Source of the DNA: an uncultured Deinococcales bacterium
GTDB taxonomy: Bacteria > Deinococcota > Deinococci > Deinococcales > JAAFIG01
Assembly: GCA_964247135.1 (NCBI GenBank)
Contig: CAXTTL010000046.1
Span: forward strand, 1-25,065
Direction: 5' to 3'
Length of the DNA: 25,065 bases
Shown here: piece by piece, positions 2 through 25,065 of the stretch
How positions within the stretch are numbered: the first letter of the stretch is position 1
Layout of the letters: each line of letters opens with the position of its first letter
Notes under the pieces: generated by a model
What the model saw: the letters and a program-made list of their open reading frames with translations, nothing else
Told to the model about the DNA's origin: nothing
Database searches by the model: none
Program-made: the position numbers and the translations under genes

Positions 2-340
2 AAATCGCTCGAGGGTCGAATGCAGTACGTGCTCGTCTCCGACCCGATTCCTGCGGGCATGAAAGCCCTTGACGAGCGCAGCCTCAGCATCACGGGCGTC
101 TCGAGCGGCGACAATTACTACGATTGGAATTACTGGTATTCGGGACGCGACATCCGTGACGAACGCGTTGACCTGTACGCCTACAGCCTCGAAGGAACAC
201 AAACCATGCAGTACATTCTGCGGGCGCAAACCCCAGGCAAATACACTGCGCTGCCCGCCAATGCCAGCCTGATGTACGACCCAGACGTTGCCGGTCAAAG
301 CGCCGCCAGCACTTTCACCATCCATGACCGAGGACAATAA
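2..340 (+). CDS. Bacterial alpha-2-macroglobulin family protein, C-terminal MG10 domain (5'-partial)
   Basis: Frame is open from base 2. YVLVSDPIPAG...DIRDERVDLYA...YILRAQTPGKYTALPANASLMYDP matches the C-terminal bMG10 pattern of YfaS/YfhM-type proteins. Confidence 0.85.
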   Translation, partial: KSLEGRMQYVLVSDPIPAGMKALDERSLSITGVSSGDNYYDWNYWYSGRDIRDERVDLYAYSLEGTQTMQYILRAQTPGKYTALPANASLMYDPDVAGQSAASTFTIHDRGQ

Positions 341-405
341 AAATTTCTCGAGCTTCCTCAACGCTCCTGCCAAAAAAGTACCCCCTGCAAGCAGGGGGGT
401 GCCGC

Positions 406-1158
406 ATGTCAGAAAGGTACTTTGACCATGATTGTCGGCAAGTTCTGGCTGTTGCGGCGGGGGTCTTGCGCCACGAAAACTCCAGTCTCACGCCACGAAA
501 CCTCCCAGCTCGAGGTTTGTTACTAGGTCAATTGAGTCTCTGTATTGCACTCCTTTTCTCCTCGAGTTTCGCCGTTTCAACCTTTCAAACCAGCAACCTC
601 ACCATCAAATACCACGATCCCAAAGACAAATCCCAACTCGAGCCGGTGGCGCTTGCCTGGCAAGACGCGCAAACCAAACTTCGCGCCATCGGACTCGAGC
701 CTCAAGCCGTTACGCTCGAGGCGTATGCCAGTGCCGCGCAATTCAGCAAAGCGACGGGTGAACCGTGGTTTGTGGCGGCACTGACCCAAGGAAAACGCAT
801 TCAAACCCAGCGACTCGGGGCTTTGAAGGCTCGAGGAATTCTAAGATTTACAATCTTGCACGAATCATTCCACACCGTTCAACCAGTCAAACTCCCGCGT
901 TGGTTGGCAGAAGGTTTAGCCAGAATCTTCTCGGGCGAAACCTCGAGCGACCCAAGCCCGTCAGGTGCTGCTGTAGGGTCAAGAAGTGATTCACAGCAGA
1001 CCAAGCTCGAGCAAATTTCAGAATCTCAGTTAAATACCGCACTCGAGGGACGCAATGCCCAAATCAGCCTCGAGCAAGCCTACTGGGAAGCCAGCCGCCG
1101 CGCTCAAAAACTACTGGCAGCTCGAGGATGGAAAAGTGTTTTGAACGGTTACCGTTAG
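406..1158 (+). CDS. Exported HExxH (gluzincin/peptidase MA-like) domain protein; true start probably downstream, near the signal peptide
   Basis: Signal-like LSLCIALLFSSSFA; ILHESFH followed by PRWLAEGLA (HExxH...E metal motif); lies directly after the A2M gene. Confidence 0.6.
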   Translation: MSERYFDHDCRQVLAVAAGVLRHENSSLTPRNLPARGLLLGQLSLCIALLFSSSFAVSTFQTSNLTIKYHDPKDKSQLEPVALAWQDAQTKLRAIGLEPQAVTLEAYASAAQFSKATGEPWFVAALTQGKRIQTQRLGALKARGILRFTILHESFHTVQPVKLPRWLAEGLARIFSGETSSDPSPSGAAVGSRSDSQQTKLEQISESQLNTALEGRNAQISLEQAYWEASRRAQKLLAARGWKSVLNGYR

Positions 1159-1285
1159 CGTCTCGAAAATCGGTTTTGAAACTCAAGTTGCTTGAACCCC
1201 TCTCGCATCTCAATTTCGATTGCCTCTTGTGCGATACTAAAGCCATGAGATTCAAAAACCCGAGTTTTGTCGTTGGAGGTCGCGT

Positions 1286-2812
1286 ATGAAGCCACAAACC
1301 CTGATTCCCCTGCTGGTGATTGCGGTTGCCGCATTTTTTGGTTGGAATTCGTATCAGAACTGTCAGTTGCAGCTTCCTGGGCTTGCCGCGCCAGCCAATT
1401 GCGTCTCGAGTCCGACGACTCCGACCACCCCTACGACGCCAACCACGCCGATCACGCCAACAACCCCAACGACCCCAACAACACCAACGACCCCAACCTC
1501 AACAACCCCGACCACTCCAACGCCTCCGACCACCCCAACCGGTGGCGGTGCACCGGAATTAACAATGGTCACGCCCGACGTGAATCCTGCGATCAACCTT
1601 CGCCCCGAACGCGCCGCCATCCTCTCGGCATTCGGAGCGAAGGATTATCCAAACGTCATGAGCCTTGCCGACGGTTGGCTGAATGCCCGTCCCGCCGACG
1701 CTTTGATTGCTTTGGTGCGCAACAACGCGCTCTTAAAACAACGAGGCTCGAGCGTGATTACGATAGGGGTCAGCGTTCCGACCAGCGGCGCGACCACCCA
1801 AGCGGGCGAGGCTGTTTTGCAGGGCGTGAACATGGCGGTGCAAGAAGCCAACAAAGACGGTGGGGTGGGCGGGAAGTCCATTGCGGTTGAAATCTTGAAC
1901 GACCAAAATGACCGCGCCCTGGCAATTCAGGTGGCAACGGCAATGGTTGCCAATTCCAAAGTGCTCGGGGTGATTGGACCCGTCAACTCGAGTAGTGCGC
2001 TTGCCGCCGCCGATATTTACAACGGTGGGCTGGTGCATATCGCGCCAACCGCCAGCGATGACCGTCTTGCCGATTCCGGTCCTTGGACATTTCGCATGGT
2101 TCCCAAGAACAGCGCCCAAGGGCGGGCGCTGGCTCGAATTGCCAAACAGCGCGGTTTCATTCGGATTCCGGTTTATTTTGATCCCAAAGTTGCTTACAGC
2201 AAAGGTTTAGCCGATTCCTTTGAAAAAGAAGCCGCAAGCCTTGGAATCAGTGCCGTACCAGTCGAATTTACTTCGGGCAGCTTGCCCGAGCAAGCTGGCT
2301 TTGATGTTTTTCAAGATTCACCAGCGCCCGATGCGGCTTTTATTTCTGGGGATTATACCGATGTCGCCAGGATTGCCAAGGCGTTGCGTGAACAAAACAT
2401 CACCGTGCCGCTGATTGCGGGTGATAGCGCTTATTCGCAATCCTTACTGCAAACGGCGGGTACAGCGGTTGAAGGTCTGACCCTGGTCAGTTACTTTCAT
2501 GCCAGCGCCACCAGCGTCGGCAGCACCCAGAGTTTTGTCAAAGCCTTCGCCAACCGTTACGGCGGCGGTACACCGAACGCCCGAGCAGCCCAGGCTTACG
2601 ACGCCACCAGAACGCTGATCGAGGCGATTAGACGCGCCAAAACCCTTGACCGTGCAGGCGTGAAGGCGGCGCTGAATACCTTCACCAGCGCAAAACCAGG
2701 TCCAGGGGTCACCAGCAAAGTGCAATTTAAAGACGGTGGCATTGTCGGGCGTCCGTTTGTGGTGATTCAGGTGGCGCAAGGCAAACTGGTTTCAAGTGGC
2801 ATTGCCCAGTAA
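1286..2812 (+). CDS. Branched-chain amino acid (LivJ/LivK, Peripla_BP_6) type ligand-binding protein with N-terminal membrane anchor and Pro/Thr linker
   Basis: RBS GGAGG before ATG; IGVSVPTSG, GVNMAVQEANKDGGVGGK, VIGPVNSS, AAQAYDA motifs typical of type I periplasmic binding proteins. Confidence 0.85.
   Translation: MKPQTLIPLLVIAVAAFFGWNSYQNCQLQLPGLAAPANCVSSPTTPTTPTTPTTPITPTTPTTPTTPTTPTSTTPTTPTPPTTPTGGGAPELTMVTPDVNPAINLRPERAAILSAFGAKDYPNVMSLADGWLNARPADALIALVRNNALLKQRGSSVITIGVSVPTSGATTQAGEAVLQGVNMAVQEANKDGGVGGKSIAVEILNDQNDRALAIQVATAMVANSKVLGVIGPVNSSSALAAADIYNGGLVHIAPTASDDRLADSGPWTFRMVPKNSAQGRALARIAKQRGFIRIPVYFDPKVAYSKGLADSFEKEAASLGISAVPVEFTSGSLPEQAGFDVFQDSPAPDAAFISGDYTDVARIAKALREQNITVPLIAGDSAYSQSLLQTAGTAVEGLTLVSYFHASATSVGSTQSFVKAFANRYGGGTPNARAAQAYDATRTLIEAIRRAKTLDRAGVKAALNTFTSAKPGPGVTSKVQFKDGGIVGRPFVVIQVAQGKLVSSGIAQ
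1411..1540 (+). repeat. Coding (Pro-Thr-Thr)n low-complexity tandem repeat
   Basis: Translates as PTTPTTPTTPTTPITPTTPTTPTTPTTPTSTTPTTPTPPTTPT; imperfect 9-bp period. Confidence 0.9.
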
Positions 2813-2826
2813 AAATAAAACTTCCA

Positions 2827-2864
2827 GAATAAGGCTCGAGTTTGAACTCGAGCCTTATTCTTTT
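2827..2864. terminator. Intrinsic terminator-like hairpin between convergent genes, with CTCGAG in each arm
   Basis: GAATAAGGCTCGAGTT-TG-AACTCGAGCCTTATTC perfect 16-bp inverted repeat followed by TTTT; overlaps the glycosyltransferase stop codon. Confidence 0.7.
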
Positions 2865-4039
2865 AAGCGCACCAGTTTCCCGCCTTGACTGACGCGGTAG
2901 ACGCTGCCACGCCAGGACGTGGTGGTTTGAATCAGCGCCCGAATCCAGGCGCCAAGGAGTAAAATCTCGGTCAGCGGTAAAAACCACATTGAACGCCACA
3001 TCGCGGGTTCTTGAAAGTAAATGATGTTTAAAATGGCAATCCCAACCCAGCGCAGGCTGACGTAACCAAGCAAAATCGCCCAACCGATGCTGGCAGAAAT
3101 TCCTGCCAATGGCAGTAAAAAAGGCAGTGACAAGGCTGCCAAAAATGGATGTGTCAGTGGCAAAAGGCAATACTCGAGCAACGGAATCGTGGTGCGGTAA
3201 GTCAAATGCCAACGGTGCTGATGCGCCCAGTACTCGAGAAAGGTTTTCTTGGGTTCGGGAACGTTGCCGCGAACTTTGGTGATGATGCTTTGGTAACCAG
3301 ATTCAAACAAAAATTTACCCATCGTCGAATCGTCGGCAATATTGTCTGCAACGCGTCCGAAACCACCAACTTGCGCCAGCATCTCAGGTTTGATGGCATA
3401 GTATGTGCCAGGAAAAACGTCGCGCACGCCAAAAAATTCTTTCATGCTGTAAAACAAAATCATAAAAGGGCTGTAATACGAACCGATCAAATGGGCACCA
3501 AAGTCTTGCATGTCGCGGTAGACCGGAATCGCGCCAGCAGCCGCCACGGGTTTGCTGCCGGGCTGAGAGTAAAGTGCGCGTACCAAACGGCGCACATCGT
3601 CTTTGCCCGCAATTAAATCCGAATCGGCACTCACATAAACCTTTCCAGTGGCAATACGTTGTGCGGCGAGCACATTGTTGGCTTTGCCCATCTCCACGGT
3701 TCGGGGACTCGAGTCCACCAATTTGATCTCGCGGTTGGGGTACGACTGTTGCAATTCGCGGATCATCGGCAGCACGGGGTCGTCCTGCCCTTCGACTGCA
3801 AAAATCACTTCAAAATCGGGGTAATCCTGCTCGATAAACGAAACAAATCCGGCTCGAGCGGCAGGATCAAGCCCTTTGACCGGTTTAAGGATTGAGACTC
3901 GGGGCCAGTTTGCGGGGTCGCTGGCTTCTGGTTGCGCCAAAAACTTTAATGCTGCCAGAAAAGCCAGCACAAAGACCACGCTCGAGATCAACGTGAAAGC
4001 CAACAGTACCAGCGCGACCACAGCCATTGCCTGCATCAT
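2855..4039 (-). CDS. Glycosyltransferase, GT21 ceramide glucosyltransferase / HpnI-like
   Basis: N-terminal TM helix, VSILKPVKGLD, GKANN, DSD, IADD and QHRW (QxRW) motifs, C-terminal TM helices ending WRG. Confidence 0.8.
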   Translation of the reverse strand: MMQAMAVVALVLLAFTLISSVVFVLAFLAALKFLAQPEASDPANWPRVSILKPVKGLDPAARAGFVSFIEQDYPDFEVIFAVEGQDDPVLPMIRELQQSYPNREIKLVDSSPRTVEMGKANNVLAAQRIATGKVYVSADSDLIAGKDDVRRLVRALYSQPGSKPVAAAGAIPVYRDMQDFGAHLIGSYYSPFMILFYSMKEFFGVRDVFPGTYYAIKPEMLAQVGGFGRVADNIADDSTMGKFLFESGYQSIITKVRGNVPEPKKTFLEYWAHQHRWHLTYRTTIPLLEYCLLPLTHPFLAALSLPFLLPLAGISASIGWAILLGYVSLRWVGIAILNIIYFQEPAMWRSMWFLPLTEILLLGAWIRALIQTTTSWRGSVYRVSQGGKLVRLKE

Positions 4040-4923: not shown

Positions 4924-4963
4924 TACGCCATCCTAAACCGAAAACAGCCCCCCAATTGCGGGT

Positions 4964-5130: not shown

Positions 5131-5145
5131 AAGCGTGACTGGTAT

Positions 5146-5220
5146 AGGTTCGTAGCTCAGGGGTAGAGCACCACATTGACACTGTGGGGGTCAGCAGTTC
5201 AAATCTGCTCGAGCCTACCA
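5146..5220 (+). tRNA. tRNA-Val(GAC)
   Basis: Acceptor AGGTTCG/CGAGCCT, anticodon arm CCACA-TTGACAC-TGTGG, T arm AGCAG-TTCAAAT-CTGCT, ACCA end. Confidence 0.97.
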
Positions 5221-5318: not shown

Positions 5319-7562
5319 TTACTTGATGATGTTGGCAGTCACTACAATCAGCAATTGGGTTTGATCCGAACTCGTGGAAGATTTCTTAAACAAATCACCA
5401 ATCAGTGGGATTGAACTGAGAATCGGAATACCTTGGTCTGTTGAATCTTTTGAAGTGGCAAGCAAGCTGCCCATCAGAAGTGTCTGACCATCTTTGAGGC
5501 GAACTGTTGATTCTGATTGACGGTCTGTGAAATCAATACGGGTTGCACTGGTGTTGGTTGGGTCTGTAACACCGCTGACATTGGCTTTAACACCTAAAGT
5601 AATGTCACCATTCGCAGCAACCGTTGGGGTGACTTCTACCTGCACACCAAATTCAAGGGTCCGTGAAGCCAAGGCTGTTGCTGTGCCAGCACCAGTTGTT
5701 GGAGATTGGATTTCGATCCGCCCACCTGATTTCAAAAGTCCTTTTCCATTGTTTAAAACAGTAATGGTCGAATCATTGATCTTTTTCGAGAGTTTTTGAG
5801 TCTCGAGGGCATTCAAGGCTGCACCAATGTTTAAGCCTGCAACGCTACGGGTGGCATCAAACAAGAAGTTGAGTGCGCCGTTTAGAATTGATCCCGAAAA
5901 ATTACCAAAGCCCAAACTCCAATCGATACCCAAGGCGCGGCTTGCACTATCGGTTACCTCTTGAATCCGAATGCCGACATTGACCAAAGATTGTGGTTTA
6001 TCCAGCGACGGTAAGACTGCAATCACACTGTCCACTTGTTCAGGAGTTCCGCTGATAATCAAGGTGTTGGAATCATCATCTGCGACAATGCTGACTTGGA
6101 TTGGTGTAACGGTGGTTGCACCTGGCAGGGTGGTGGCTTGAGCACCTGTGCCAGTTGTGGTGGGTTGAGCACCGGCTGTAATCTGACCTAAAACACTGGC
6201 GAGTTTGCTGGCTTTGGCATACGACAACGAAAAGGTTTTACGAACGGTCAAAGTTGGAGCAACTGGAGCGGCGGCAGGGGTTGCCTTGTCCACGGTTGCC
6301 AGCAATTGCTTGACTTGGGCTTGCTCGGCGGTGGTGGCGTTGACGATCAAAATCTTCTGGTTCGGGGCAACGGTCACTTTAATGCCAGGGTAAGTGTTCT
6401 CGAGGAACACTTTTAAAGCGGTCGGATCGCCATTGACTTCGTAGGTTTGCACCACGGTCACAACCGCAGGCGGCGGCGCGGAAACCGTTTGCGGAATGTC
6501 CACTCGAGCCAGTAGGTTTTTAACTTGGTCTTGTTCGGTTGGTGTACCTGTGACAATAATCAGTTTCTGATTTGGTGGTACGGTCACACGAAGGCTTGGA
6601 TAGGTGCTCTCGAGAAATTTCTTTAAGCCTTCAGGATCACCGTTGACTTCATACGTTTGCGTGACAGGTAAAATCACCGGAGCTTGTTGCACAGGGACAG
6701 GTGGCGGCACTGGTTTATCGACCTGTGCCAACACTTTGGCAACCTGATCGTGCTCGGCGGCGGTGGCGCTGACAATCAAAACCTTTTGGTTTGGCGGAAC
6801 ATTGACTTTGATGGTCGGGAATGCACCTTCGAGGAACTTCTTTAAGGCTTCAGGATCGCCATTCACATCGTAAGAGCGCAATTCGGTTGGAATGACCGAG
6901 GTGGTCGTGGTTGGTGGCAGCGGTTTATCGACTTGTGCCAGCAATTCTTTGACTTGAACATGTTCTTCTGTGGTCGCGGCGATTACCAGCAATTTTTGAT
7001 TTGGTGGAACGGTGACTTTGATGGTTGGATAGGTGCTTTCCAAAAAGGCTTTTAAGGCAACTGGATCGCCGCTGACCACGTAGGTGCGGATTTCAATGGC
7101 GGGGGCAACGGGGGCTTGTTGAACAGGAGTCGGTTGTGGTGTGGCGACTGGCGTTGGGGCTTTGGGCAAGAACTTCTCGATCACCGAAGGGGGTCCGACC
7201 ACCACGACATTGTTGGGTTGTAAAACATAGTCCAAGCCGTACAGTGTAATTAAGGTGTCCCAAACTTGACGAAACGGTTTTTTAACACTCCAGGCGGACC
7301 CCAACGTCCGGTCAGGAATGGCTTCGGGCAAAACTTGCAAACCGACAGATTTGCCAATGATCCTTAAATAATCCTCGAGTTTGGTTCCGTCAGGACCGAC
7401 CTGAAATTCGATGATCTGATCGAATCTGGAATCGCTGGGAAACCTCGAGCTTTGTTGCGCCATTGCGGGAAAGAAAGTACTCGAGAGGGCGAGGAGGAAG
7501 ATCGTCAAACTTGTGAGCAGTTTTGGCATGGACACCACCTTCGGGAAAGTTATGAGACGCAT
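5319..7562 (-). CDS. pilQ: Type IV pilus / DNA-uptake secretin PilQ
   Basis: Signal peptide, N domains (LSYAKA...IVADDDSNTLIISGTPEQV) and C-terminal secretin (FGVQVEVTP, VRLKDGQTLLMGSL, GIPILSSIPLIGDLFK); last gene of pilMNOWQ; TAATG stop/start overlap with pilW. Confidence 0.92.
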   Translation of the reverse strand: MRLITFPKVVSMPKLLTSLTIFLLALSSTFFPAMAQQSSRFPSDSRFDQIIEFQVGPDGTKLEDYLRIIGKSVGLQVLPEAIPDRTLGSAWSVKKPFRQVWDTLITLYGLDYVLQPNNVVVVGPPSVIEKFLPKAPTPVATPQPTPVQQAPVAPAIEIRTYVVSGDPVALKAFLESTYPTIKVTVPPNQKLLVIAATTEEHVQVKELLAQVDKPLPPTTTTSVIPTELRSYDVNGDPEALKKFLEGAFPTIKVNVPPNQKVLIVSATAAEHDQVAKVLAQVDKPVPPPVPVQQAPVILPVTQTYEVNGDPEGLKKFLESTYPSLRVTVPPNQKLIIVTGTPTEQDQVKNLLARVDIPQTVSAPPPAVVTVVQTYEVNGDPTALKVFLENTYPGIKVTVAPNQKILIVNATTAEQAQVKQLLATVDKATPAAAPVAPTLTVRKTFSLSYAKASKLASVLGQITAGAQPTTTGTGAQATTLPGATTVTPIQVSIVADDDSNTLIISGTPEQVDSVIAVLPSLDKPQSLVNVGIRIQEVTDSASRALGIDWSLGFGNFSGSILNGALNFLFDATRSVAGLNIGAALNALETQKLSKKINDSTITVLNNGKGLLKSGGRIEIQSPTTGAGTATALASRTLEFGVQVEVTPTVAANGDITLGVKANVSGVTDPTNTSATRIDFTDRQSESTVRLKDGQTLLMGSLLATSKDSTDQGIPILSSIPLIGDLFKKSSTSSDQTQLLIVVTANIIK
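6283..7094 (-). repeat. Four tandem ~70-aa N-domain repeats within PilQ
   Basis: Four copies of (T/S)YxV(N/S)GDPxxLKxFLExx(Y/F)PxxxVxVxPNQKxxxxxxTxxExxQVxxxLAxVD at ~210-220 bp period. Confidence 0.9.
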
Positions 7563-12652: not shown

Positions 12653-12890
12653 GGTGTCCTCCAAGAAAAATGCTTCACAGAGTTTAACCCGAAATTCCAA
12701 GGCTCGAGAAACAAAACGTTGGAGACAGTGTTTTTGTCTCCAACGGGATTGAAAATTGGAAGCCTCGAGTGCGGGACTTGTACTTTGTATGCAAAATGTA
12801 TCATGCATTGGAGACAAAAAATAGATGACTGCCTACGAAATTTGTTTGGGACTGGCGATACGATATATTCCAATCTCGAAAGGAGTTTTG

Positions 12891-14804
12891 ATGACGAACA
12901 CTTTGATCCCGCGTCATGTTTTGTTTGGCAATCCTGAGCGCACAATGGTTAGCCTAAGCCATGATGCGAAGCATTTGTTGTTTCTCGCGCCTGTAGACGG
13001 CGTGCAGAACGTTTGGATCGCCCCGATTGAAAACCCCAGCGCGGCTCGAGCCATCACCAAAGCAACGGGGCGCGGGATTCCGTTTGCCATGTGGCTGTAC
13101 ACGAACGAGCACATCATTTACGTGCAAGACCGCGCCGGCGACGAAAACTGGCGGTTGTACAGCGTTAACATTGTCACGCTCGAGGAACGCGATTTGACGC
13201 CACTCGAGGGGGTTCGGGCGCAACCGATGGGTTTCAGTGAGCGTTTTCCCGATGAAATGCTGGTTGGTCTCAATGACCGTGTGCCGCAATTGCATGACTT
13301 GTACATCATCAACGTTCGCAGTGGCGAACGGCGTTTGCTGCTCGAGAATGAAATGGGTTTTGTGGCTTTTGTCTGCGATCACGATTACCAGCCCCGTTTT
13401 GGGCTTCAGATGAACCCAAATGGCAGTACGGATGTGTTTCAACGCATTGAGAACACCTGGGAAGCTTTCTCGAGCATTCCGAGTGAGGACAGCCTGACCA
13501 CCCAATGGCTCGGCTTTGATGAAACGGGTCAAGTGCTTTACATCACAGATTCTCGAGGTCGCAACACCAGCGCTTTGTTCAGTCACAACCTCACAGCCAA
13601 TACACGAACCTTGCTCGCCGAGGATGCTCGAGCCGATTTTAGCGATTGGTTGCAGCATCCGACCACGCACACGGTTCAGGCGGTTTCGTTCAATTACGAC
13701 CGTGAACACCGACAATTTTTGGATGATCGAATCAAAGCCGATTTTGAATATTTGCAGGGTATTGCCAAAGGCGAAATCGGTGTGAACAGCCGCAGCTTGG
13801 ATGACCAACATTGGTTGGTGACCGACTCGAGCGACCAGGCGCCCGTCCGGTACTATCATTATGACCGTGCGGCAAAACGGGCGACGTTCTTGTTTACGGA
13901 TCGCCCTGAACTCGAGCAGTATTTGTTAGCGCCAATGCAACCCAAATTGATTCAAACCCGCGATGGTCTTGAGATGGTTTGTTACCTGACCACAACGCCT
14001 CACTCGAGTTCACCTGTTCCAATGGTTTTGTTGGTTCACGGTGGACCCTGGGCGCGTGACGCGTGGGGATATGATGCCCAGGCGCAATGGCTGGCGAACC
14101 GTGGTTACGCCGTGTTGCAAGTCAACTTCAGGGCTTCAACTGGTTTTGGCAAGGCGTTTACCAATGCGGGCAACCTCGAGTGGGGTAAAAAAATGCACGA
14201 TGACCTGCTGGATGCCGTCGATTGGGCGGTCAAAGAAGGGATCACCTCGAGCGACACGGTGGCGATCATGGGCGGCAGTTACGGCGGTTATGCGACGCTG
14301 GCAGCCTTGACCTTGACGCCAGAGCGTTTTGTGTGCGGAGTGGACATTGTCGGACCTTCAAACTTGCAAACCTTGATCGAGTCGGTGCCGCCGTATTGGG
14401 AACCGATGATTGCCATGTTTAGAAACCGAATTGGCGATGACACGACCACTGAAGGGCAAGCGCTTTTAAAGGAACGTTCGCCGCTGACGCACGTCTCGAG
14501 CATCACAAAACCGTTGTTGATTGGGCAGGGCGCGAACGACCCTCGGGTAAAACAAGCCGAGTCGGATCAGATTGTCAATGCCATGACTGCCAAGAACATT
14601 CCGGTGACGTATGCCTTATTTCCCGATGAAGGTCACGGTTTTGCCCGCCCCGAGAACCGACAAGCGTTTTATGCGATAGCCGAGGCATTTTTGGCTAAAC
14701 ATCTCGGTGGCAGTTGCCAAGCCATTGGAAACGATTTTGAAGGCTCGAGCATTCAGATTCTTCAGGGGGCTGCCCAAATTCCAGGTGCAACCGAAATGCT
14801 CTGA
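12891..14804 (+). CDS. S9 family (prolyl oligopeptidase / acylaminoacyl peptidase) serine peptidase
   Basis: Start moved to ATG 12891 (RBS AAGGAG); beta-propeller N-terminus, VHGGPW, GGSYGG (Ser), GANDPRV (Asp), DEGHGF (His). Confidence 0.93.
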   Translation: MTNTLIPRHVLFGNPERTMVSLSHDAKHLLFLAPVDGVQNVWIAPIENPSAARAITKATGRGIPFAMWLYTNEHIIYVQDRAGDENWRLYSVNIVTLEERDLTPLEGVRAQPMGFSERFPDEMLVGLNDRVPQLHDLYIINVRSGERRLLLENEMGFVAFVCDHDYQPRFGLQMNPNGSTDVFQRIENTWEAFSSIPSEDSLTTQWLGFDETGQVLYITDSRGRNTSALFSHNLTANTRTLLAEDARADFSDWLQHPTTHTVQAVSFNYDREHRQFLDDRIKADFEYLQGIAKGEIGVNSRSLDDQHWLVTDSSDQAPVRYYHYDRAAKRATFLFTDRPELEQYLLAPMQPKLIQTRDGLEMVCYLTTTPHSSSPVPMVLLVHGGPWARDAWGYDAQAQWLANRGYAVLQVNFRASTGFGKAFTNAGNLEWGKKMHDDLLDAVDWAVKEGITSSDTVAIMGGSYGGYATLAALTLTPERFVCGVDIVGPSNLQTLIESVPPYWEPMIAMFRNRIGDDTTTEGQALLKERSPLTHVSSITKPLLIGQGANDPRVKQAESDQIVNAMTAKNIPVTYALFPDEGHGFARPENRQAFYAIAEAFLAKHLGGSCQAIGNDFEGSSIQILQGAAQIPGATEML

Positions 14805-20193: not shown

Positions 20194-20256
20194 ACTGTGC
20201 TCAGTGACTCGAGGGATCAATCATTCTCGAGGATTTTAGAAAACAGAGGAGAGCAG

Positions 20257-20622
20257 ATGATTTTTGACTTGCCAACCAATTTTCCAGGACTTCAAGAAAC
20301 GCCGCTCGTGACCAAACTCGAGTTTCCAGAATCGGGCGTCAACATTGAGGGACACTTTAGACTCAACGAATTTGCGCTGTTGCCGCCAGACAACCTCGAG
20401 TTTTTGCGGCTGTACATCAAGGTGCGCGGCAACCTGAAAGAAGTCGAACGCATTCTGGGCTTGAGTTACCCGACCATTCGATCCAGATTTGAAGATTTGC
20501 TCAAAGCGTTGGGTTACGAAGCCGAAGCCAGTGATGCCGAAGCCCGAGACGATGTCCTCAAAGCTTTGGAGCGCGGCGATATCGGACCGACCGAGGCACT
20601 CGAGCGACTGAAAAACGCATAA
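20257..20622 (+). CDS. DUF2089 family HTH protein
   Basis: Start moved to ATG 20257 (RBS GAGGAG); FLRLYIKVRGNLKEVERILGLSYPTIRSR and C-terminal VLKALERGDIG-EALERL. Confidence 0.85.
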   Translation: MIFDLPTNFPGLQETPLVTKLEFPESGVNIEGHFRLNEFALLPPDNLEFLRLYIKVRGNLKEVERILGLSYPTIRSRFEDLLKALGYEAEASDAEARDDVLKALERGDIGPTEALERLKNA

Positions 20623-20630
20623 AGGAATTT

Positions 20631-20669
20631 AAAAACCTCGGGCGATGCTGGACATCGCCCGAGGTTTTT
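20631..20669. terminator. Bidirectional intrinsic terminator
   Basis: AAAAACCTCGGGCGATG-CTGGA-CATCGCCCGAGGTTTTT between convergent genes. Confidence 0.85.
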
Positions 20670-20676
20670 GTGACGA

Positions 20677-21171
20677 TCAATCCATCAAATTTTGAAGTGC
20701 CTTTTCAACCTCGGTGTGTCGGAGCTTGACCTCAGCCTCCAACTTGGCTCGGGCGTGAAAATGGCTCGAGAAATGCTCCAACGCTTCAGAAAACGCGAAC
20801 AACTCTTCAACCTCGAGTTTGATATTTTCAGCATCGAGCGGTTTTAAATCGCGTTTGTTGTCGAGCAAATCGTCCAGCCTTGCCATCATGCCGGACAAGG
20901 GACGCAACCATTGAAAGATGGGATCGCTGGTCACCAGTTGAAAATAGGCGAACGGACCGTTGATCGCGCCGTTTGTGGACTCGTATTCTTTTTTGACGAT
21001 TTCCAACAAGGTTGAATGGGTGCTGCGCAATGCCTGAGCCAAATCGTTCAGTTTGATGCGTTGCGCCTGGTCGATGGGGTCTACCGGGCGGGTGTCTCGA
21101 GTAATGCTCACGCTCTGTATTTTAGACCATTTCAAAGCCATCATTTGTTTTTCTGTCACGTTCGCAGGCAT
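20677..21171 (-). CDS. Hypothetical helical protein (start uncertain)
   Basis: LAQALRSTHSTLLE...DPIFQWLRPLSGMMARLDDLL looks like a real conserved helical protein; start placed after the TetR stop. Confidence 0.65.
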   Translation of the reverse strand: MPANVTEKQMMALKWSKIQSVSITRDTRPVDPIDQAQRIKLNDLAQALRSTHSTLLEIVKKEYESTNGAINGPFAYFQLVTSDPIFQWLRPLSGMMARLDDLLDNKRDLKPLDAENIKLEVEELFAFSEALEHFSSHFHARAKLEAEVKLRHTEVEKALQNLMD

Positions 21172-21187
21172 TTTGCGGGCTTCAAAT

Positions 21188-21769
21188 TCAAGCGGGTTTG
21201 AAACCCTCGAGCAACATCTTGCAAAACGCATCGGCAATTTCGCCCGCATTCAGGCGACCGTTCGGGTTAAACCAGTGGTATGCCCAATTGGCGCTCGAGA
21301 GCGAGAGCACGCTGGCAAGTTTGGCATCCAAATCTGGACGGAACGACCCTTTTTTGATGCCTTCCTCGAGAATCTCGCGGTAAATCCGTTCGACGCTGGC
21401 ACGCCTATCGGCAATCTCCTCAATTTTGGTGATCGGCAAATGCTTCCACTCGTGAAAAAACACGGTCGCCCAATCCTTGTTTTTCGAGATCACGTTCAAA
21501 TGCGCCTCGAGCGCCGCCCGCAACTTTTCGGGTGGTGGCAGCTTGCTGTCCCGAATCGGCTCGAGTGCCGCATCGAACTCGTCGGCGGCACGGTTCACGA
21601 TTTCCCACAGCAATTCCTCTTTGCTCGAGATGTGCGCGTACAAACTGCCACCCTGCACGCCCAGAGCTTTGGCAAGGTCGCGCATACTGGTGGCATGATA
21701 GCCCAACTGCGAGAAGAGTTTGCCCGCAGTGCGGTAAATTTGTTCTTTCCTGGAAACGGGTTGGGTCAC
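21188..21769 (-). CDS. TetR/AcrR family regulator (PaaR/KstR2-like acyl-CoA-sensing type)
   Basis: LFSQLGYHATSMRDLAKALGVQGGSLYAHISSKEELL HTH; C-terminal NWAYHWFNPNGRL. Confidence 0.92.
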   Translation of the reverse strand: MTQPVSRKEQIYRTAGKLFSQLGYHATSMRDLAKALGVQGGSLYAHISSKEELLWEIVNRAADEFDAALEPIRDSKLPPPEKLRAALEAHLNVISKNKDWATVFFHEWKHLPITKIEEIADRRASVERIYREILEEGIKKGSFRPDLDAKLASVLSLSSANWAYHWFNPNGRLNAGEIADAFCKMLLEGFKPA

Positions 21770-21856
21770 GTTAAGAGCAGTCTATCCGATGCTCGAGCGG
21801 TTTTGGAAGCACCAAGCCCAGATCGGTTTGTGTTGGCTCGAGTTTGACCAACAATA

Positions 21857-21884
21857 AAGCGGGTTGGAATGTTCCAACCCGCTT
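21857..21884. terminator. Terminator hairpin downstream of the lipoprotein gene
   Basis: AAGCGGGTTGGAA-TG-TTCCAACCCGCTT, with an A-rich flank giving a U-tail on the minus strand. Confidence 0.75.
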
Positions 21885-21908
21885 CAGCACGTTATTTTGA
21901 GGTTTTGG

Positions 21909-23183
21909 TTACGGAATATTTTCAATCAACTGGACTTGTGCGGTAATTACCGTTTGTTCCCAGTTCAGTGTCGCCACATTGATGATTGTTCCCGATGAGT
22001 ACGTTGCTGGGATTGTAAATGTTTTGCTCGCGCCAGCATCCAGGTCAAAGGTTTCATCGAGGTTGGTGCCAGTTAAGCCGGCAGGCAGTGGGTCAACCAC
22101 ATGGACACCCGTTGCGGTGCTGCCGCCGGTGTTGTTGACCGTGATGGTGAACACGACTGGCTGTCCTGGATTGGGTTGAACAATATCAGCCTCTTTGGTC
22201 ATGCTGAGTTTGGGTGGGTCAACCACAACAGCCTGCTTTTTCTGACCGACAAACATGTGCCAGACGTCAATCGCACAACCCGAGCAACGGCTTGGACATT
22301 GACCGTAATTGGTGATTGTTAAGGTAACAGTTTTGTACTTTGCGCCCTGTGGAAGCTCGAGCAACGCTGGACGGGCGTCTTCACCAATATCGCCGCGCCA
22401 TTTAACGGTGGTTGTTTTGGTTGGATAAACGGTGCTGGTGGACTTGTTAAGATTCACCATTGCCGTGAAATTTTGCGTGCCAATAATATTGTTTGAATTG
22501 TTGGCTTCCTGCACGCAAACCAGCGGCGTGCCGTTCACGAGCGACCAACCGGTCAAATCGTTGATGCAGGTTCCGTCAACGGTGGTGGCACTGACTTTGA
22601 TGCTCGAGTTGAGGTTGGTGTTGGCGTAAAAACCCGCCATGCCGATCAATGTGTTCTCGTCGGCATAACCTTTGGTCAGGTGACTAAAGTCGAGGGTGAT
22701 GGTATAAGCCGAAGCCGTGCCAGGCTGACGAATTTTGGGGCAGAACCGTAACGAATACGGATCGTTGAGGCTGTTGTAACCCGCAAAGCCACCCTTGATG
22801 GCAGGATTGAGCACCGTGGATGTGGTACTGAGGGTGCTGAGGCTGCAAATCCCGATGTTGCTCGAGATCGAAACGCCAACGTTGCCCTGGTCAGACAACG
22901 GGACGCTGCCTGTCAAATGTCCGTTGCTCCAATTGCTGCCCACGCTCCACCAGGTCACGTCGGTTGGGGCAACATTAGTACGCAAGGTTGGACTTGGCAC
23001 GACATAACCCTGAAATGCTTCAATGGGATTCGATATTTGAATCCCATTTGGTTGCAAACCCAGTGCCAACGGTTGATCGGTGGTGATGTCAGGCGTTGAA
23101 GAACAACCTAAGAAGCTGGCGGTCAAACCGATTAACGCCAGGGCGGCGATTGATCTTCTCCAGTTTTGTAAGTTTTTTGTCAT
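21909..23183 (-). CDS. Lipoprotein with C-terminal DUF11 (OmcB-like Ig) domain
   Basis: Lipobox FLG-C; C-terminal LSMTKEAD...[15 protein letters not shown]...[14 protein letters not shown] is the DUF11 signature. Confidence 0.8.
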
Positions 23184-23190
23184 AGTTCTT

Positions 23191-23218
23191 AGTATAGCCT
23201 AATGTTGGCGCGTGTCAA
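23191..23218 (-). promoter_or_regulatory. SigA promoter for a leaderless lipoprotein mRNA
   Basis: Minus strand TTGACA-16 bp-TATACT, then 7 nt to the ATG, with no SD. Confidence 0.7.
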
Positions 23219-23288
23219 TTCATGAAGTTTAGTTACGAAATAATGTAGTTCCTATAAAACAATACAGAACAACCATCAATACACAAAT

Positions 23289-23325
23289 AAAAGATGCCGC
23301 CCAAAAAATTGAGCGGCATCTTTTT
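23289..23325 (-). terminator. rpsO terminator
   Basis: AAAAGATGCCGC...GCGGCATCTTTT inverted repeat 10 bp past the rpsO stop. Confidence 0.75.
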
Positions 23326-23335
23326 GAGATTCGGA

Positions 23336-23605
23336 TTAGCGACGAATGCCGAGACGTTCGATCAATTTACGGTAGGCATCATAATCTTTGGTGCGCAAAT
23401 ACTTGGTCAAACTGTTGCGCTTGCCGACCAGCACTTGCAAGCCACGTTGACCGTGCTTATCCTTCTTGTTGCCGTTCAGGTGGCTCGAGAGGTTGTTGAT
23501 GCGGTGCGTCAGCACGGCGACTTGAACCTGGGTGCTTCCCGTGTCGCCCTCGAAAGTTGCGTAATCTTTAATAACCTTTGTCTTGTCTTCTGCACTAAAT
23601 GACAT
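23336..23605 (-). CDS. rpsO: 30S ribosomal protein S15
   Basis: 89 aa from ATG 23605 (RBS AAAGGA); [19 protein letters not shown]...[10 protein letters not shown]...LIERLGIRR. Confidence 0.97.
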
Positions 23606-23704
23606 ATCGGTACGTCCTTTTATTAAGTCCGGCAAGTCCCAGCAAACCCCAAACAGGGCAACCCTGACTCCCGCGAGGAAAGAGCGTAGCACACAAACCA
23701 GAAG

Positions 23705-23733
23705 TTGACAAACTCGAGTTTGCTCGGTAAGCT
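23705..23733 (+). promoter_or_regulatory. SigA promoter for tRNA-Leu
   Basis: TTGACA (23705-23710), 17-bp spacer, TAAGCT (23728-23733). Confidence 0.7.
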
Positions 23734-23777
23734 CTTCAAGCTGTTCAGCCCTCGAGCAACACTGAACGGAGCATTCA

Positions 23778-23866
<89 letters not shown>

Positions 23867-23869
23867 AAT

Positions 23870-23904
23870 AAAATGGCATGAATCTTTTTGGTTCATGCCA
23901 TTTT
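23870..23904 (+). terminator. Terminator after tRNA-Leu
   Basis: AAAATGGCATGAA-N9-TTCATGCCATTTT. Confidence 0.75.
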
Positions 23905-24145
23905 GATTTTTGCACCGGCACAAGGCATTGATGAACTTCGAGCTTTTGCAATTACCAAAGAATTTCTTCATGACATGCGGGAATTTCATGGTAAACCGAG
24001 TTTCAATGGTAACTCGAGCATTACACGGACAGAAGATTTTGAAATAGGTCAATCTCGAGTTACTCCGTTAAATCTTTCCGACCTGTGCGCCAATGGTTGT
24101 TCGGTCATTGATCTCGAGTTTTACATTTTCACATTTGAACGTAAC

Positions 24146-24174
24146 TTGAAGTAACGTACAAAATAAAGTACAAT
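24146..24174 (+). promoter_or_regulatory. Promoter/operator of the toxin-antitoxin operon
   Basis: TTGAAG-17 bp-TACAAT, 7 nt before the ATG; two GTAC cores 12 bp apart (24156, 24168) overlap it. Confidence 0.6.
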
Positions 24175-24181
24175 TTAACGT

Positions 24182-24460
24182 ATGCCTGTACTCGATTTTC
24201 AACAAGATATCGTGCCACTTTCCGAGTTCCGCTCGAACACCGCAAGTATCGTGCAACACATTCAACGCGATGAGGCAACCGTCATTCTGACGCAAAACGG
24301 TAAAGCTGCCGCCGCAATTATGGGCATTGCCGAATACCAACGTCTGACCGCAGAATTGATCGAACTTCGCAGCATGGTGAACGGATTAGCCGATGCCTTG
24401 CAAGGAAAAACCATGCCACACAAAACCGTAAAACAAAACATCAAAAAGGCTCGAGAATGA
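24182..24460 (+). CDS. Phd/YefM family antitoxin
   Basis: DIVPLSEFRSN...VILTQNGKAAAAIMGIAEYQ is the Phd/YefM N-terminal DNA-binding pattern. Confidence 0.9.
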   Translation: MPVLDFQQDIVPLSEFRSNTASIVQHIQRDEATVILTQNGKAAAAIMGIAEYQRLTAELIELRSMVNGLADALQGKTMPHKTVKQNIKKARE

Positions 24461-24733
24461 CCCGAATGGAGTCAAGGTGCGGAACAACAGCTTTTTGAAA
24501 TCCTATTGTCTTTCAGCACGAAAACGACTTTTGAGAAATTTGAAAAACAACTGAATACCGCACTCGAGCAACTCGAAACATTTCCCGAATCTGCCCGAAT
24601 GAACCCTGTGTTGTACCGTTCAGATTTCCGATCTTTTCTGGTCGGGGATTACCGCGTAACGGTACTGCTATTGCAGGATCGAATTTTGGTGTTTTCAATG
24701 GTGCATACGCATTCTGGCGCAGCGTTTGATTGA
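24457..24733 (+). pseudogene. RelE/ParE family toxin with out-of-frame start (frameshifted, recoded or sequencing error)
   Basis: Toxin frame reads PEWSQGAEQQLFEI...LETFPESAR...YRV...VH from 24461. The coupled ATG at 24457 is in another frame and stops at 24496-24498. Confidence 0.7.
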
Positions 24734-24869
24734 CAAACCTTAATCAGAGCGGGTTTCAGGGGTAACTCGAGAATTGCGTTAAGGTAACGCAGAAGTCATC
24801 CTAAATTGTGTTTGCCTTGTTCAGTTTCAGCGTTTGTACTAAACTTTAAACCAATGAGGAACGATTGAG

Positions 24870-25065
24870 ATGGCAAGAGACAAATACCACCAAGCTGTCA
24901 AGGTTGCGCTCGAGAAAGCTGGTTGGAACGTCACAAATGACCCGTATTATCTTGATTTTGGTGGTGTCAACTACGAAATAGATTTGGCAGCCGAAAACAT
25001 TTTAGCAGCCGAGCGTAACGGCGAACGAATTGCCATTGAAGTCAAAAGCTTTTTGCGTGATAGCG
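24870..25065 (+). CDS. xisH: XisH family protein (3'-partial; not in ORF track)
   Basis: Manual translation MARDKYHQAVKVALEKAGWNVTNDPYYLDFGGVNYEIDLAAENILAAERNGERIAIEVKSF matches the XisH N-terminal pattern (D.yH.aVk.AL.K.GW.iT.DP...iDL.AE...AAE....IAvEvKSF). Confidence 0.85.
   Translation, partial: MARDKYHQAVKVALEKAGWNVTNDPYYLDFGGVNYEIDLAAENILAAERNGERIAIEVKSFLRDS

What the first reader, a model, noticed from the sequence alone, without database searches (positions are those of the whole stretch)
8..24914. CTCGAG is a ~20-fold over-represented, HIP1-like highly iterated palindrome
Seen: about 145 CTCGAG (XhoI site) by manual count in 25,065 bp, versus about 6 expected for a 6-mer at near-even base composition. 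It is not only a Leu-Glu codon pair. In ORF 406-1158 the 11 copies use all three frames: CTC GAG at 637, 694, 715, 1006, 1042 and 1069; xCT CGA G at 509, 830 and 1121; xxC TCG AG at 561 and 942. All six Leu-Glu pairs in that ORF use CTC GAG. Copies also lie in intergenic DNA, hairpins, promoters and a tRNA. Established: palindromic 6-mers are usually avoided, and the classic exception is cyanobacterial HIP1 (GCGATCGC), linked to DNA methyltransferases. Inference: this lineage has a genome-wide motif system, such as methylation-directed biased repair, a chromosome-organising or recombination mark, or an uptake tag. I cannot check whether it has been reported in related Deinococcota.
Basis: partly seen in the sequence, partly recalled or inferred. 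Interest (0 to 1): 0.88.

Follow-up and report, generated by a model that had tools for sequence, protein, structure and literature searches.

The report
Hyper-abundant CTCGAG palindrome across Deinococcales family
The six-letter DNA word CTCGAG occurs about once every 150 bases, roughly 25 times more often than chance, throughout the genomes of an uncultured family of Deinococcales bacteria; this resembles the HIP1 palindrome of cyanobacteria but lies in another phylum, and its cause is still unknown.

Summary
The window has 145 CTCGAG against about 4 expected. The 5.09 Mb genome has 33,925 copies, one per 150 bp and 25-35 times expectation, on every contig.

It is not a codon artefact. A shuffle that keeps amino acids and codon usage leaves a 7-fold excess. 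All three frames are enriched, and intergenic DNA is the densest.

All 19 genomes of the coded family f1 (5 genera; records titled "Deinococcales bacterium") carry 4.3-6.8 copies per kb. Sister families carry 0.01-3.4 per kb, and one of them avoids the word.

Sites are lost about 3 times more slowly than other hexamers. They are created about 3 times faster than neutral expectation, at all six positions.

No methyltransferase orthologue in any canonical class spans the family, and Vsr was found in 0 of 19 genomes. It therefore looks like HIP1 but lacks HIP1's methyltransferase signature.

My best guess, at about 0.4, is a drive in which repair or DNA uptake and recombination favour the whole hexamer. 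Six literature searches found no prior report.

The parts
8..24914 (.). 145 dispersed copies of the palindromic hexamer CTCGAG (5.8 per kb). Sixty-seven are read as CTC-GAG, 21 as xCT-CGA-G and 32 as xxC-TCG-AG in ORF-proxy genes; about 25 lie outside them.
   Evidence: positions; 4.08 expected from shuffles; frame and coding split; of 121 alignable window sites, 81 are shared with both congeners.
406..1158 (+). ORF with 11 copies in all three frames. All 6 Leu-Glu pairs are spelled CTCGAG. It has no family match and contains a 41-bp dispersed repeat.
5208..5213 (.). Copy inside tRNA-Val(GAC), at position 63 of the tRNA (gene at 5146-5220).
   Evidence: Genome-wide, 10 copies lie in 66 tRNAs (1.95 per kb).
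23713..24914 (.). Nine copies in a stretch with no ORF-proxy gene (23713, 23751, 24013, 24054, 24113, 24450, 24563, 24766, 24909). This illustrates the high noncoding density.
   Evidence: genome-wide noncoding density.

Best explanation
SHOWN (confidence about 0.95). CTCGAG is a genuine highly iterated palindrome of an uncultured Deinococcales family. The unit is strictly the 6-bp duplex word. It is not the shorter TCGA, not the degenerate CYCGRG, and not part of a longer repeat. It is spread almost at random along the DNA, in all reading frames, in intergenic DNA and even in tRNAs. It is maintained site by site by a directional force. Existing sites are lost about 3 times more slowly than other hexamers. 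New sites arise about 3 times faster than the neutral substitution rates predict, by changes at every one of the six positions. In G000 gains and losses balance. The force is strong enough to make Leu-Glu the most over-represented dipeptide of the proteome.

INFERRED (confidence about 0.4; this is the figure given in the confidence field). The most likely mechanism is a molecular drive rather than a benefit at each site. A protein, probably a homodimer, reads the full palindrome in duplex DNA. It biases the outcome of mismatch correction or of DNA uptake and recombination towards the strand or allele that carries the word. Changes that create the word are then fixed more often, and changes that destroy it are reverted. 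This is the logic of very-short-patch repair and of DNA uptake sequences, here without the canonical Vsr nuclease and without a family-wide DNA methyltransferase. Milder enrichment in sister families suggests the machinery is old in the order and runs at its strongest in this family.
For: Abundance: 145 in the window against 4.08 expected. In the genome, 33,925 copies with O/E of 24.8 (base composition), 35 (order 1) and 14.4 (order 2). It is the commonest hexamer by more than 2-fold.

Spread: present on every contig (minimum 2.56 per kb, median 6.8). Flanking bases are only weakly biased. Spacing has CV 0.96. Only 0.09% of 5-kb windows have fewer than 2 per kb. 96% of ORF-proxy genes carry at least one copy.

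Not coding-driven: 28,532 copies in coding sequence against 4,014 after a synonymous shuffle and 1,680 after a whole-codon shuffle. By frame, 17,385/4,543/6,604 against 3,102/339/573. Noncoding DNA has 7.5 per kb and short intergenic gaps 8.85 per kb, against 6.5 per kb in coding DNA.

Strict word: 62% of all TCGA lie in CTCGAG. The other NTCGAN words occur 121-2,188 times. CCCGGG occurs 124 times.

Lineage: all 19 of 19 family f1 genomes have 4.3-6.8 per kb. The highest value outside f1 is 3.4 per kb. G011, from another genus, shows the same pattern by frame and in noncoding DNA.

Directional force: in 77.6 kb of three-way alignment, the motif was lost on 157 of 1,219 ancestral site-branches (0.11-0.16), against 0.32-0.37 for all hexamers. 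There were 18 gains from conserved one-off ancestors against 6.5 expected (Poisson P = 1.5e-4). In G000, 45 lineage-specific sites stand against 44 losses. Conservation is 0.80 against 0.44 overall, and 0.80 against 0.47 in noncoding DNA.

Gains by type: 7 T-to-C type, 7 C-to-T type at positions 2/5, and 4 transversions, so the whole word is being read.

Proteome: Leu-Glu has O/E 2.40, the highest of 400 dipeptides, against 1.02 for Glu-Leu. 76.8% of Leu-Glu pairs are spelled CTCGAG.

Graded trait in sister families: G128, G126, G025, G147 and G019 exceed their own synonymous shuffles in all frames and have 1.4-2.4 per kb in noncoding DNA.
Against: No protein that reads CTCGAG was identified, so the drive is inferred only from substitution patterns. 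Those patterns cannot separate biased conversion from natural selection on each site.

A 6-bp palindromic uptake signal has no precedent. At one site per 150 bp, the marginal effect of one more site on the uptake of a kilobase fragment should be small.

The canonical motif-restoring nuclease Vsr was found in 0 of 19 family genomes.

Gains from one-off ancestors are few (18 events). The tiles were chosen for having BLAST hits of at least 700 bp in both congeners, which favours conserved DNA.

Gene calls are a long-ORF proxy, not a gene finder.

Family f3 of the same order strongly avoids the word (37-1,193 copies per genome). An order-wide mechanism therefore needs a second factor in that family.
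Confidence: 0.4

Rival explanations
1. Methylation-linked HIP, as proposed for HIP1. An orphan methyltransferase marks CTCGAG. The methylated sites serve mismatch-repair strand choice, replication control or methylation-dependent transformation, and selection keeps their density high.
For: For HIP1 and the alternate cyanobacterial HIPs, a methyltransferase for the word is reported present (Elhai 2015, PMC4390886, abstract and passages). Methylated HIP1 raises transformation more than 100-fold (Kamoku and Nielsen 2024 preprint, abstract). A conserved orphan CTCGAG methyltransferase exists in Nocardia (Blow 2016, PMC4752239, passages). CTCGAG is a methylated motif in hot-spring communities (2026 preprint 10.64898/2026.06.24.734251, passages). 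G000 has about 12 DNA methyltransferase genes.
Against: No orthologue group spans the family. The C36 enzyme matched in 5 of 18 other f1 genomes at E <= 1e-10, near-full-length in only two. C178 has close orthologues in 3. C207 is in none of 5 congeners. The C4 466-aa enzyme is in 3, two of them with stops. The D12 enzyme has close orthologues in 6 of 18 other f1 genomes. TaqI_C-type enzymes are in 6 of 19. PF01555 has no hit in the single-contig genome G011. PF00145 has no hit in G008, which is 91% complete. The roughly 500-aa gamma-class enzymes fall into at least six unrelated clusters. Losses show no excess of C-to-T change at one cytosine. Caveats: specificity cannot be read from sequence, different enzymes could have replaced one another, the genomes are incomplete, and the C14, C189, MmeI-like and C112 genes were not profiled.
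Confidence: 0.2
2. Binding word of an abundant DNA-binding protein (nucleoid organisation, compaction or a global regulator). Selection acts on site density for chromosome structure.
For: A palindrome suits a homodimer. Density is highest in intergenic DNA. Xu et al. 2018 (PMC5861425, abstract and passages) argue for such a role for HIP1. 5-kb window counts are mildly over-dispersed (sd 7.9 against a Poisson 5.8).
Against: Local spacing is essentially random (CV 0.96), with no regular phasing. A density function predicts weak constraint on individual positions, yet 58% of sites are shared by all three congeners, against 14% for other hexamers. No candidate protein was found. Kilobase-scale periodicity cannot be tested in a genome of 386 contigs.
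Confidence: 0.2
3. Self-marker for defence. A high density of the word, modified or not, lets a defence or restriction-like system spare resident DNA and attack incoming DNA that lacks it.
For: Palindromes are under extreme pressure in this genome: 28 of 64 palindromic hexamers have O/E < 0.1, against 160 of 4,032 non-palindromes, and GAGCTC has 0 copies. There are many methyltransferase and restriction-type genes. One low-density island carries a TraG-like conjugation ATPase, and the methyltransferase gene on C189 (40% GC) has no copy.
Against: No such system is known or was identified here. The viral scan was uninformative. Selection per site would be very weak.
Confidence: 0.1
4. By-product of codon usage, Leu-Glu content or oligonucleotide bias, or an assembly or cloning artefact.
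For: 61% of the coding copies are CTC-GAG. The maximal-order Markov O/E is only 1.24, but the 5-mers used for that expectation are themselves made up mostly of the motif.
Against: A 7-fold excess remains over the synonymous shuffle. The off-frames are enriched 13- and 12-fold. Intergenic density is the highest. Glu-Leu and GAGCTC, which use the same codons, are not enriched. The same word is enriched in 19 separately assembled genomes, at conserved orthologous positions.
Confidence: 0.01

Closest known systems
HIP1 (GCGATCGC) and the alternate HIPs of cyanobacteria (GGCGCC, GCsGC, rCCGGy)
   Same: A short GC-rich palindrome that is by far the most over-represented word. It is dispersed through coding DNA (all frames) and noncoding DNA, is conserved at orthologous positions above control motifs, and is shared by a whole lineage. 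The hosts are, from my own knowledge, polyploid and naturally transformable.
   Different: A different word and a different phylum. It is a hexamer at about 6,660 copies per Mb, against 300-2,700 per Mb reported for HIPs (Elhai 2015, Table 2 text). No cognate methyltransferase co-extensive with the trait was found. The same order contains a graded series and one family that avoids the word. Periodicity could not be tested.
   Same: A family-level word accumulated by a drive that both creates and preserves sites, in genes and between them, without needing a methyltransferase.
   Different: Uptake sequences are 9-12 nt, non-palindromic and occur about once per kb. Uptake bias has been shown experimentally for them and not here.
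Very-short-patch repair products (CCWGG excess in E. coli through Vsr and Dcm); recalled
   Same: A repair bias that enriches a methyltransferase target word.
   Different: Vsr was found in 0 of 19 genomes. C5 methyltransferases are not universal. T-containing neighbours are not depleted (O/E 1.17-1.74). Eleven of 18 gains are not T-to-C changes.
Orphan CTCGAG methyltransferase of Nocardiaceae, with motif clusters near dnaA (Blow et al. 2016, PMC4752239, passages read)
   Same: The same word, used outside restriction-modification.
   Different: That case is a local cluster at the replication origin. This one is a 25-fold genome-wide excess.
XhoI/PaeR7I-type restriction-modification
   Same: The same recognition word.
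   Different: Restriction targets are normally avoided, as family f3 avoids this one. No XhoI-family endonuclease was found in G000, although that family's control search matched nothing in any genome.

Membership tests
Highly iterated palindrome (HIP) | Short GC-rich palindrome that is the most over-represented word of the genome | tested here: met
   33,925 copies, O/E 24.8-35. The next words are its own overlaps. The median O/E of the 64 palindromic hexamers is 0.15.
Highly iterated palindrome (HIP) | Dispersed in coding DNA (all frames) and noncoding DNA, beyond what codon usage gives | tested here: met
   28,532 against 4,014 after a synonymous shuffle; noncoding 7.5-8.85 per kb.
Highly iterated palindrome (HIP) | Sites conserved between related genomes more than control motifs (Xu 2018) | tested here: met
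   0.80 against 0.44 for all hexamers. This holds in each frame and in noncoding DNA.
Highly iterated palindrome (HIP) | A methyltransferase for the word is present wherever the word is abundant (Elhai 2015) | tested here: inconclusive
   No orthologue group spans the 19 genomes, which leans negative. Specificity cannot be read from sequence and the genomes are incomplete.
Highly iterated palindrome (HIP) | Periodic distribution on a 10-90 kb scale (Xu 2018) | not testable with these tools
   G000 has 386 contigs, the longest 115 kb.
DNA uptake sequence (DUS/USS) | Sequence-biased DNA uptake | not testable with these tools
   This needs transformation assays. A PilQ-type secretin gene is present in the window, but such genes are not specific to this family.
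DNA uptake sequence (DUS/USS) | Non-palindromic word of 9-12 nt at about one per kb | tested here: not met
   The word is a 6-nt palindrome with only weak flanking preference (about 39% at most), at one per 150 bp.
VSP-repair product | Vsr endonuclease with a C5 methyltransferase partner | tested here: not met
   Vsr in 0 of 19 genomes. PF00145 has no hit in G008 or G015.
VSP-repair product | Depletion of the T-containing deamination neighbours, and gains only by T-to-C change | tested here: not met
   TTCGAG/CTCGAA have O/E 1.74 and CTTGAG/CTCAAG 1.17. Only 7 of 18 gains are of T-to-C type.
XhoI-type restriction target | Cognate endonuclease present and the word avoided | tested here: not met
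   The word is 25-fold enriched. PF04555 was not found in G000, but the control search also matched nothing.
Dispersed repeat element (REP, MITE, CRISPR repeat) | A conserved consensus longer than the core | tested here: not met
   Flanking bases reach at most 0.39 frequency. GCTCGAGC makes up 12.5% of sites, no more than the product of the single-position frequencies.

The most novel reading that the evidence does not exclude
CTCGAG is the recognition word of an undescribed motif-restoring system that does not depend on a methyltransferase. The system would be either sequence-directed mismatch correction or a bias in DNA uptake and recombination. It would be ancestral to Deinococcales and run at different strengths in different families: extreme in this uncultured family, mild in Thermus-like and other sister lineages, and overridden by avoidance in family f3. 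It is strong enough to rewrite protein sequences, giving a 2.4-fold excess of Leu-Glu. HIP-type words would then be a general outcome of such drives in polyploid, transformable bacteria rather than a cyanobacterial peculiarity.
Probability: 0.3. Interest if true: 0.9.

Novelty: new variant of a known kind. Interest (0 to 1): 0.8.

Why it matters
Highly iterated palindromes have been studied almost only in cyanobacteria, and thirty years of work have not settled what HIP1 does. This is an independent case in another phylum, with a different word and a higher density: about 6,660 copies per Mb and 4% of all bases.

It sits inside a natural comparative series. One family is extreme, sister families that appear (by my inference from size and G+C) to include culturable Thermus-like lineages are intermediate, and one family avoids the same word. 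That makes the responsible machinery findable by phylogenetic profiling and testable at the bench.

It also shows that a DNA-level word can reshape a proteome. Leu-Glu is the most over-represented dipeptide, and 44% of all CTC and GAG codons lie inside the word.

If no methyltransferase is involved, the prevailing methylation-centred view of HIPs needs revising.

In practice the word is a strong signature for binning contigs, for flagging foreign DNA and for assigning phages or plasmids to these hosts. If the sites are unmodified, XhoI would cut this DNA to fragments of about 150 bp.

Tried and rejected
1. 16S rRNA for naming the organism: none is assembled. The taxon word comes from record titles of close relatives.

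3. Methyltransferase candidates as the cause: five G000 enzymes were profiled in 40 relatives, and four Pfam families plus Vsr in the 19 family genomes. None is co-extensive with the trait. The roughly 500-aa gamma-class hits looked promising by score but split into at least six unrelated clusters.

4. XhoI endonuclease family PF04555: no hit in G000, but the control search matched nothing in any genome, so this is uninformative.

Of 120 stretches, 80 were listed and counted, and these were mostly 58-71% G+C phages with 2-6 copies per kb and often many GAGCTC. No phage of this family could be recognised.

6. Public sequencing runs: only two runs, holding 5-6% of the words and kept as contigs. 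I did not lay them, so there is no read-level polymorphism test and no statement about habitat.

7. Low-density islands as foreign DNA: of nine ORFs tested, one is a TraG-like ATPase and the rest are housekeeping-like or have no match. Support is weak.

8. Promoter-like and terminator-like sites: not above shuffles.

9. Maximal-order Markov expectation (O/E 1.24): rejected as a null model, because the 5-mers it uses consist mostly of the motif.

10. The 2026 hot-spring epigenome preprint reports CTCGAG methylation shared within a host-phage 'Group 2'. The passages I saw do not say which phylum that group is. Its supplements, and those of Elhai 2015 and Blow 2016, were not available to me and might bear on CTCGAG methylation in this phylum.

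Full report
OBSERVATION. The window holds exactly 145 CTCGAG, from 8-13 to 24909-24914. One hundred dinucleotide-preserving shuffles gave 4.08 +/- 2.21, with a maximum of 10. The window is contig C46 of a metagenome-assembled genome: 5.09 Mb, 386 contigs, 84% complete, 52.7% G+C, no 16S rRNA.

Genome-wide there are 33,925 copies, one per 150 bp, covering 4.0% of all bases. This is 24.8 times the base-composition expectation, 35 times the first-order Markov expectation and 14.4 times the second-order one. It is more than twice as frequent as any other hexamer, and the runners-up are its own overlaps. The maximal-order Markov ratio is only 1.24, but that null model is built from 5-mers that consist mostly of the motif.

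Every contig carries the word (minimum 2.56 per kb, median 6.8). Flanking positions are only weakly biased, with G at -1 and C at +1 at 0.38-0.39. The octamer GCTCGAGC is no commoner than the product of those frequencies. So the unit is the hexamer and not a longer repeat. The word is strict: 62% of all TCGA lie within it, the other fifteen NTCGAN words occur 121-2,188 times, and CCCGGG occurs 124 times. Neither a TCGA-level nor a CYCGRG-level reader fits.

NOT A CODING EFFECT. I had no gene finder, so I used 4,514 non-overlapping ORFs of at least 100 aa as a proxy for genes (86% of the genome). They hold 28,532 copies: 17,385 as CTC-GAG, 4,543 as xCT-CGA-G and 6,604 as xxC-TCG-AG. Shuffling synonymous codons within each gene keeps the protein sequence and the gene's codon usage, and gives 4,014 +/- 43 (3,102/339/573 by frame). 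Shuffling whole codons gives 1,680. The excess is therefore 7-fold overall and largest in the two off-frames, at 13- and 12-fold.

Density is higher outside these ORFs (7.5 per kb). It is highest in short intergenic gaps of 30-250 bp (8.85 per kb at 46.9% G+C), which by my arithmetic is about 40 times the base-composition expectation. Coding DNA has 6.5 per kb.

The word has changed the proteins. Leu-Glu is the most over-represented of all 400 dipeptides (O/E 2.40, n = 22,634), whereas Glu-Leu is at 1.02. 76.8% of Leu-Glu pairs are spelled CTCGAG, and 44% of all CTC and of all GAG codons lie in the word. That ORF has no family match and has indels in congeners.

DISTRIBUTION ALONG THE DNA. Spacing is close to exponential: mean 148, sd 143, CV 0.96. 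Counts in 5-kb windows average 33.2 with sd 7.9, against a Poisson sd of 5.8. Only 0.09% of windows have fewer than 10 copies. 96% of ORF-proxy genes have at least one copy. Density doubles in the first 40 bp after stop codons, at 13.0 and 10.0 per kb. Promoter-like and terminator-like sites in the window are not above shuffles.

WHO HAS IT. The closest records to a window protein are titled 'MAG: Deinococcales bacterium' (L075, L076, L079, L137). A pattern search over 151 genomes of the order used the tool's coded labels. All 19 genomes of family f1 (five genera, G000 included) have 12,028-35,442 copies, or 4.3-6.8 per kb given the tool's rounded genome sizes. The 132 genomes of four sister families have 37-12,522 copies, at most 3.4 per kb in G128. 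All 36 genomes of family f3 have only 37-1,193 copies, which is strong avoidance. The reversed word GAGCTC, the tool's control, has 0-25 copies in 16 of the 19 f1 genomes.

In rpoB-region loci of 12 f1 genomes, CTCGAG was the top palindromic hexamer in all 12.

I sampled 24-60 kb from each of six sister-family genomes. A milder version is present in several of them. G128, G126, G147, G025 and G019 exceed their own synonymous shuffles in all frames and have 1.4-2.4 per kb in noncoding DNA. The Thermus-like G021 does so only weakly. G011, from another f1 genus, mirrors G000: 4.5 per kb overall and 6.6 per kb in noncoding DNA. The family is therefore the extreme of a graded tendency across the order.

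HOW SITES EVOLVE. I aligned G000 with two congeners, G005 and G004. First I aligned the window itself. Then I aligned 79 one-kb tiles, 77.6 kb in all, for which both congeners gave a BLAST hit of at least 700 bp within the 185 kb and 152 kb I had fetched. Pairwise identity is 0.85-0.86.

Where the other two genomes agree, the focal genome has changed 31.8%, 32.5% and 37.4% of all hexamers. It has changed only 44 of 398, 44 of 398 and 69 of 423 CTCGAG sites (Fisher P about 1e-62). Conservation is 0.80 against 0.44 overall. By frame it is 0.83, 0.69 and 0.82. In noncoding DNA it is 0.80 against 0.47, though from only 74 comparisons. Of all motif positions, 354 are shared by all three genomes, 157 by two and 103 are unique to one. 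That is a core fraction of 0.58, against 0.14 for other hexamers.

Where both other genomes carry the same one-off variant, the focal genome has the motif in 7 of 108, 5 of 99 and 6 of 117 cases. That is 18 in all, against 6.5 expected from the branch's own per-site substitution rates (Poisson P = 1.5e-4). These gains are 7 of T-to-C type, 7 of C-to-T type at positions 2/5, and 4 transversions. G000 has 45 lineage-specific sites and 44 losses, so the system is turning over near equilibrium. Losses are transitions spread over all three half-site positions, with no single hypermutable cytosine.

WHAT MAINTAINS IT. The classical proposal for HIPs is a cognate methyltransferase, with or without Vsr-type repair. 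G000 encodes about a dozen DNA methyltransferases: two C5, five N4/N6, one D12, two MmeI-like, one HsdM-like and one protein of 1,499 aa. It has no Vsr and no XhoI-family endonuclease, though the XhoI control search matched nothing anywhere.

None of the five enzymes I profiled is shared across the family. At family scope:
- TaqI_C-type enzymes occur in 6 of 19 genomes.
- Vsr occurs in 0 of 19.
- PF01555 occurs in 16 of 19, with no hit in the single-contig genome G011, which still has 23,515 copies.
- PF00145 occurs in 17 of 19, with no hit in G008, which is 91% complete and has 21,883 copies.
- PF02384 occurs in 18 of 19, but the roughly 500-aa proteins fall into at least six unrelated, patchily distributed clusters typical of type I systems.

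The deamination-type neighbours of the word are not depleted (O/E 1.17-1.74). I conclude that a vertically inherited canonical methyltransferase or Vsr pair does not explain the trait. Methylation by successive non-orthologous enzymes, or by an unrecognised one, is not excluded.

MOST LIKELY MECHANISM. What is shown is a force that reads the whole duplex hexamer. It raises the fixation of changes that create the word and lowers the fixation of changes that destroy it. It acts in all sequence contexts, with strength limited by coding constraint: densities are lower in rpoB regions and tRNAs and higher between genes.

Two kinds of process do this. One is natural selection on each site, through methylation-dependent functions or a binding site for an abundant protein. 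The other is a molecular drive, in which mismatch correction or DNA uptake and recombination favours the motif-bearing strand or allele.

I favour a drive, at about 0.4, for three reasons. About 34,000 individually maintained sites imply an effect per site that does not depend on a shared function. Positions rather than densities are conserved. Spacing is random. From my own knowledge, members of the order are polyploid and naturally transformable, which gives ample heteroduplex for such a bias.

The rivals are a methylation-linked function (0.2), a structural binding word (0.2), a self-marker for defence (0.1) and a codon effect or artefact (0.01).

COMPARISON AND NOVELTY. In its behaviour this is a HIP. 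It meets the tests of palindromy, hyper-abundance, dispersion beyond codon usage and positional conservation that define HIP1 (Elhai 2015, PMC4390886, abstract and passages; Xu 2018, PMC5861425, abstract and passages). It differs in the word, the phylum, the density and the lack of a co-extensive methyltransferase. Elhai's text does not contain CTCGAG and covers only cyanobacteria.

Recent work links HIP1 to transformation (Kamoku and Nielsen 2024; Rodriguez-Cruz 2026, PMC13756078; abstracts only). That makes the uptake and recombination reading worth testing here. Blow 2016 reports an orphan CTCGAG methyltransferase in Nocardia with clusters of sites at the replication origin (passages).

Six full-text searches found no report of CTCGAG hyper-abundance in Deinococcota or elsewhere. 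They combined CTCGAG with 'highly iterated palindrome', with over-representation terms, with 'Deinococcales', with the prefix 'deinococc' plus methylation, and with methylome terms, plus one general search on palindrome avoidance. Subscription journals and supplementary files were not searched. I file it as a new variant of a known kind.

LIMITS. Gene calls are an ORF proxy. Genome sizes are rounded by the tool. The evolutionary sample is 77.6 kb, biased towards conserved DNA, with 18 polarised gains.

Noticed in passing
window 946-986 (inside ORF 406-1158): A dispersed repeat of about 41 bp. A 60-base query around it gave 31 blastn-short hits in G000, mostly single copies on different contigs at 90-97% identity. 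The 20-kb window query hit the same stretch at dozens of places in each of five congeners.
   Followed up: partly
whole genome G000 and family f1: Extreme palindrome avoidance. 28 of 64 palindromic hexamers have O/E < 0.1, against 160 of 4,032 non-palindromes. Counts are GAGCTC 0, GGGCCC 1, CGGCCG 3, AGGCCT 4, CGTACG 5 and GGATCC 7 copies in 5.09 Mb; GGCC has O/E 0.02 and CTAG 0.07. GAGCTC has 0-25 copies in 16 of 19 family genomes.
   Followed up: partly
family f3 of the same order (36 genomes): The same word CTCGAG is strongly avoided (37-1,193 copies per 1.9-4.8 Mb genome), the opposite of family f1. This points to a restriction system of that specificity or to the absence of the enriching process.
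   Followed up: no
window 5319-7562 (-) and the ORFs upstream to 11639: A PilQ/GspD-type secretin (TIGR02515/TIGR02517 matches) heads a run of same-strand ORFs that may be a pilMNOPQ cluster. Only the secretin was checked.
   Followed up: partly
window 12825-14804 (+): A 659-aa S9-type peptidase. Outside the genus, its best relatives (50-61% identity) are in Xanthomonadales, Sphingomonadales, Methanothrix and Dehalococcoidia records. The G004 orthologous stretch aligns poorly. Possible horizontal transfer.
   Followed up: no
G000 contigs C14, C178, C189, C36, C207, C4, C320, C21, C192, C169, C112: About twelve DNA methyltransferase genes, including two MmeI-like enzymes and a 1,499-aa Eco57I/N6 protein. 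All are patchily distributed among relatives. The C189 gene (40% G+C) has no CTCGAG at all.
   Followed up: yes
genome-wide, 0-40 bp downstream of stop codons: CTCGAG density is 13.0 and 10.0 per kb in the first two 20-bp bins after stop codons, about twice the genome average and above the intergenic mean.
   Followed up: no
whole genome G000: The hexamers AAAACC/GGTTTT, CAAAAA/TTTTTG and TCAAAA/TTTTGA have O/E 5.0-5.9 by base composition (1.1-2.2 by the first-order model). Unexplained.
   Followed up: no
G000:C75:13000-19420 (L341): One of the stretches poorest in CTCGAG (8 copies in 5 kb) encodes an 878-aa protein with a TraG P-loop domain, suggesting a conjugative element.
   Followed up: partly
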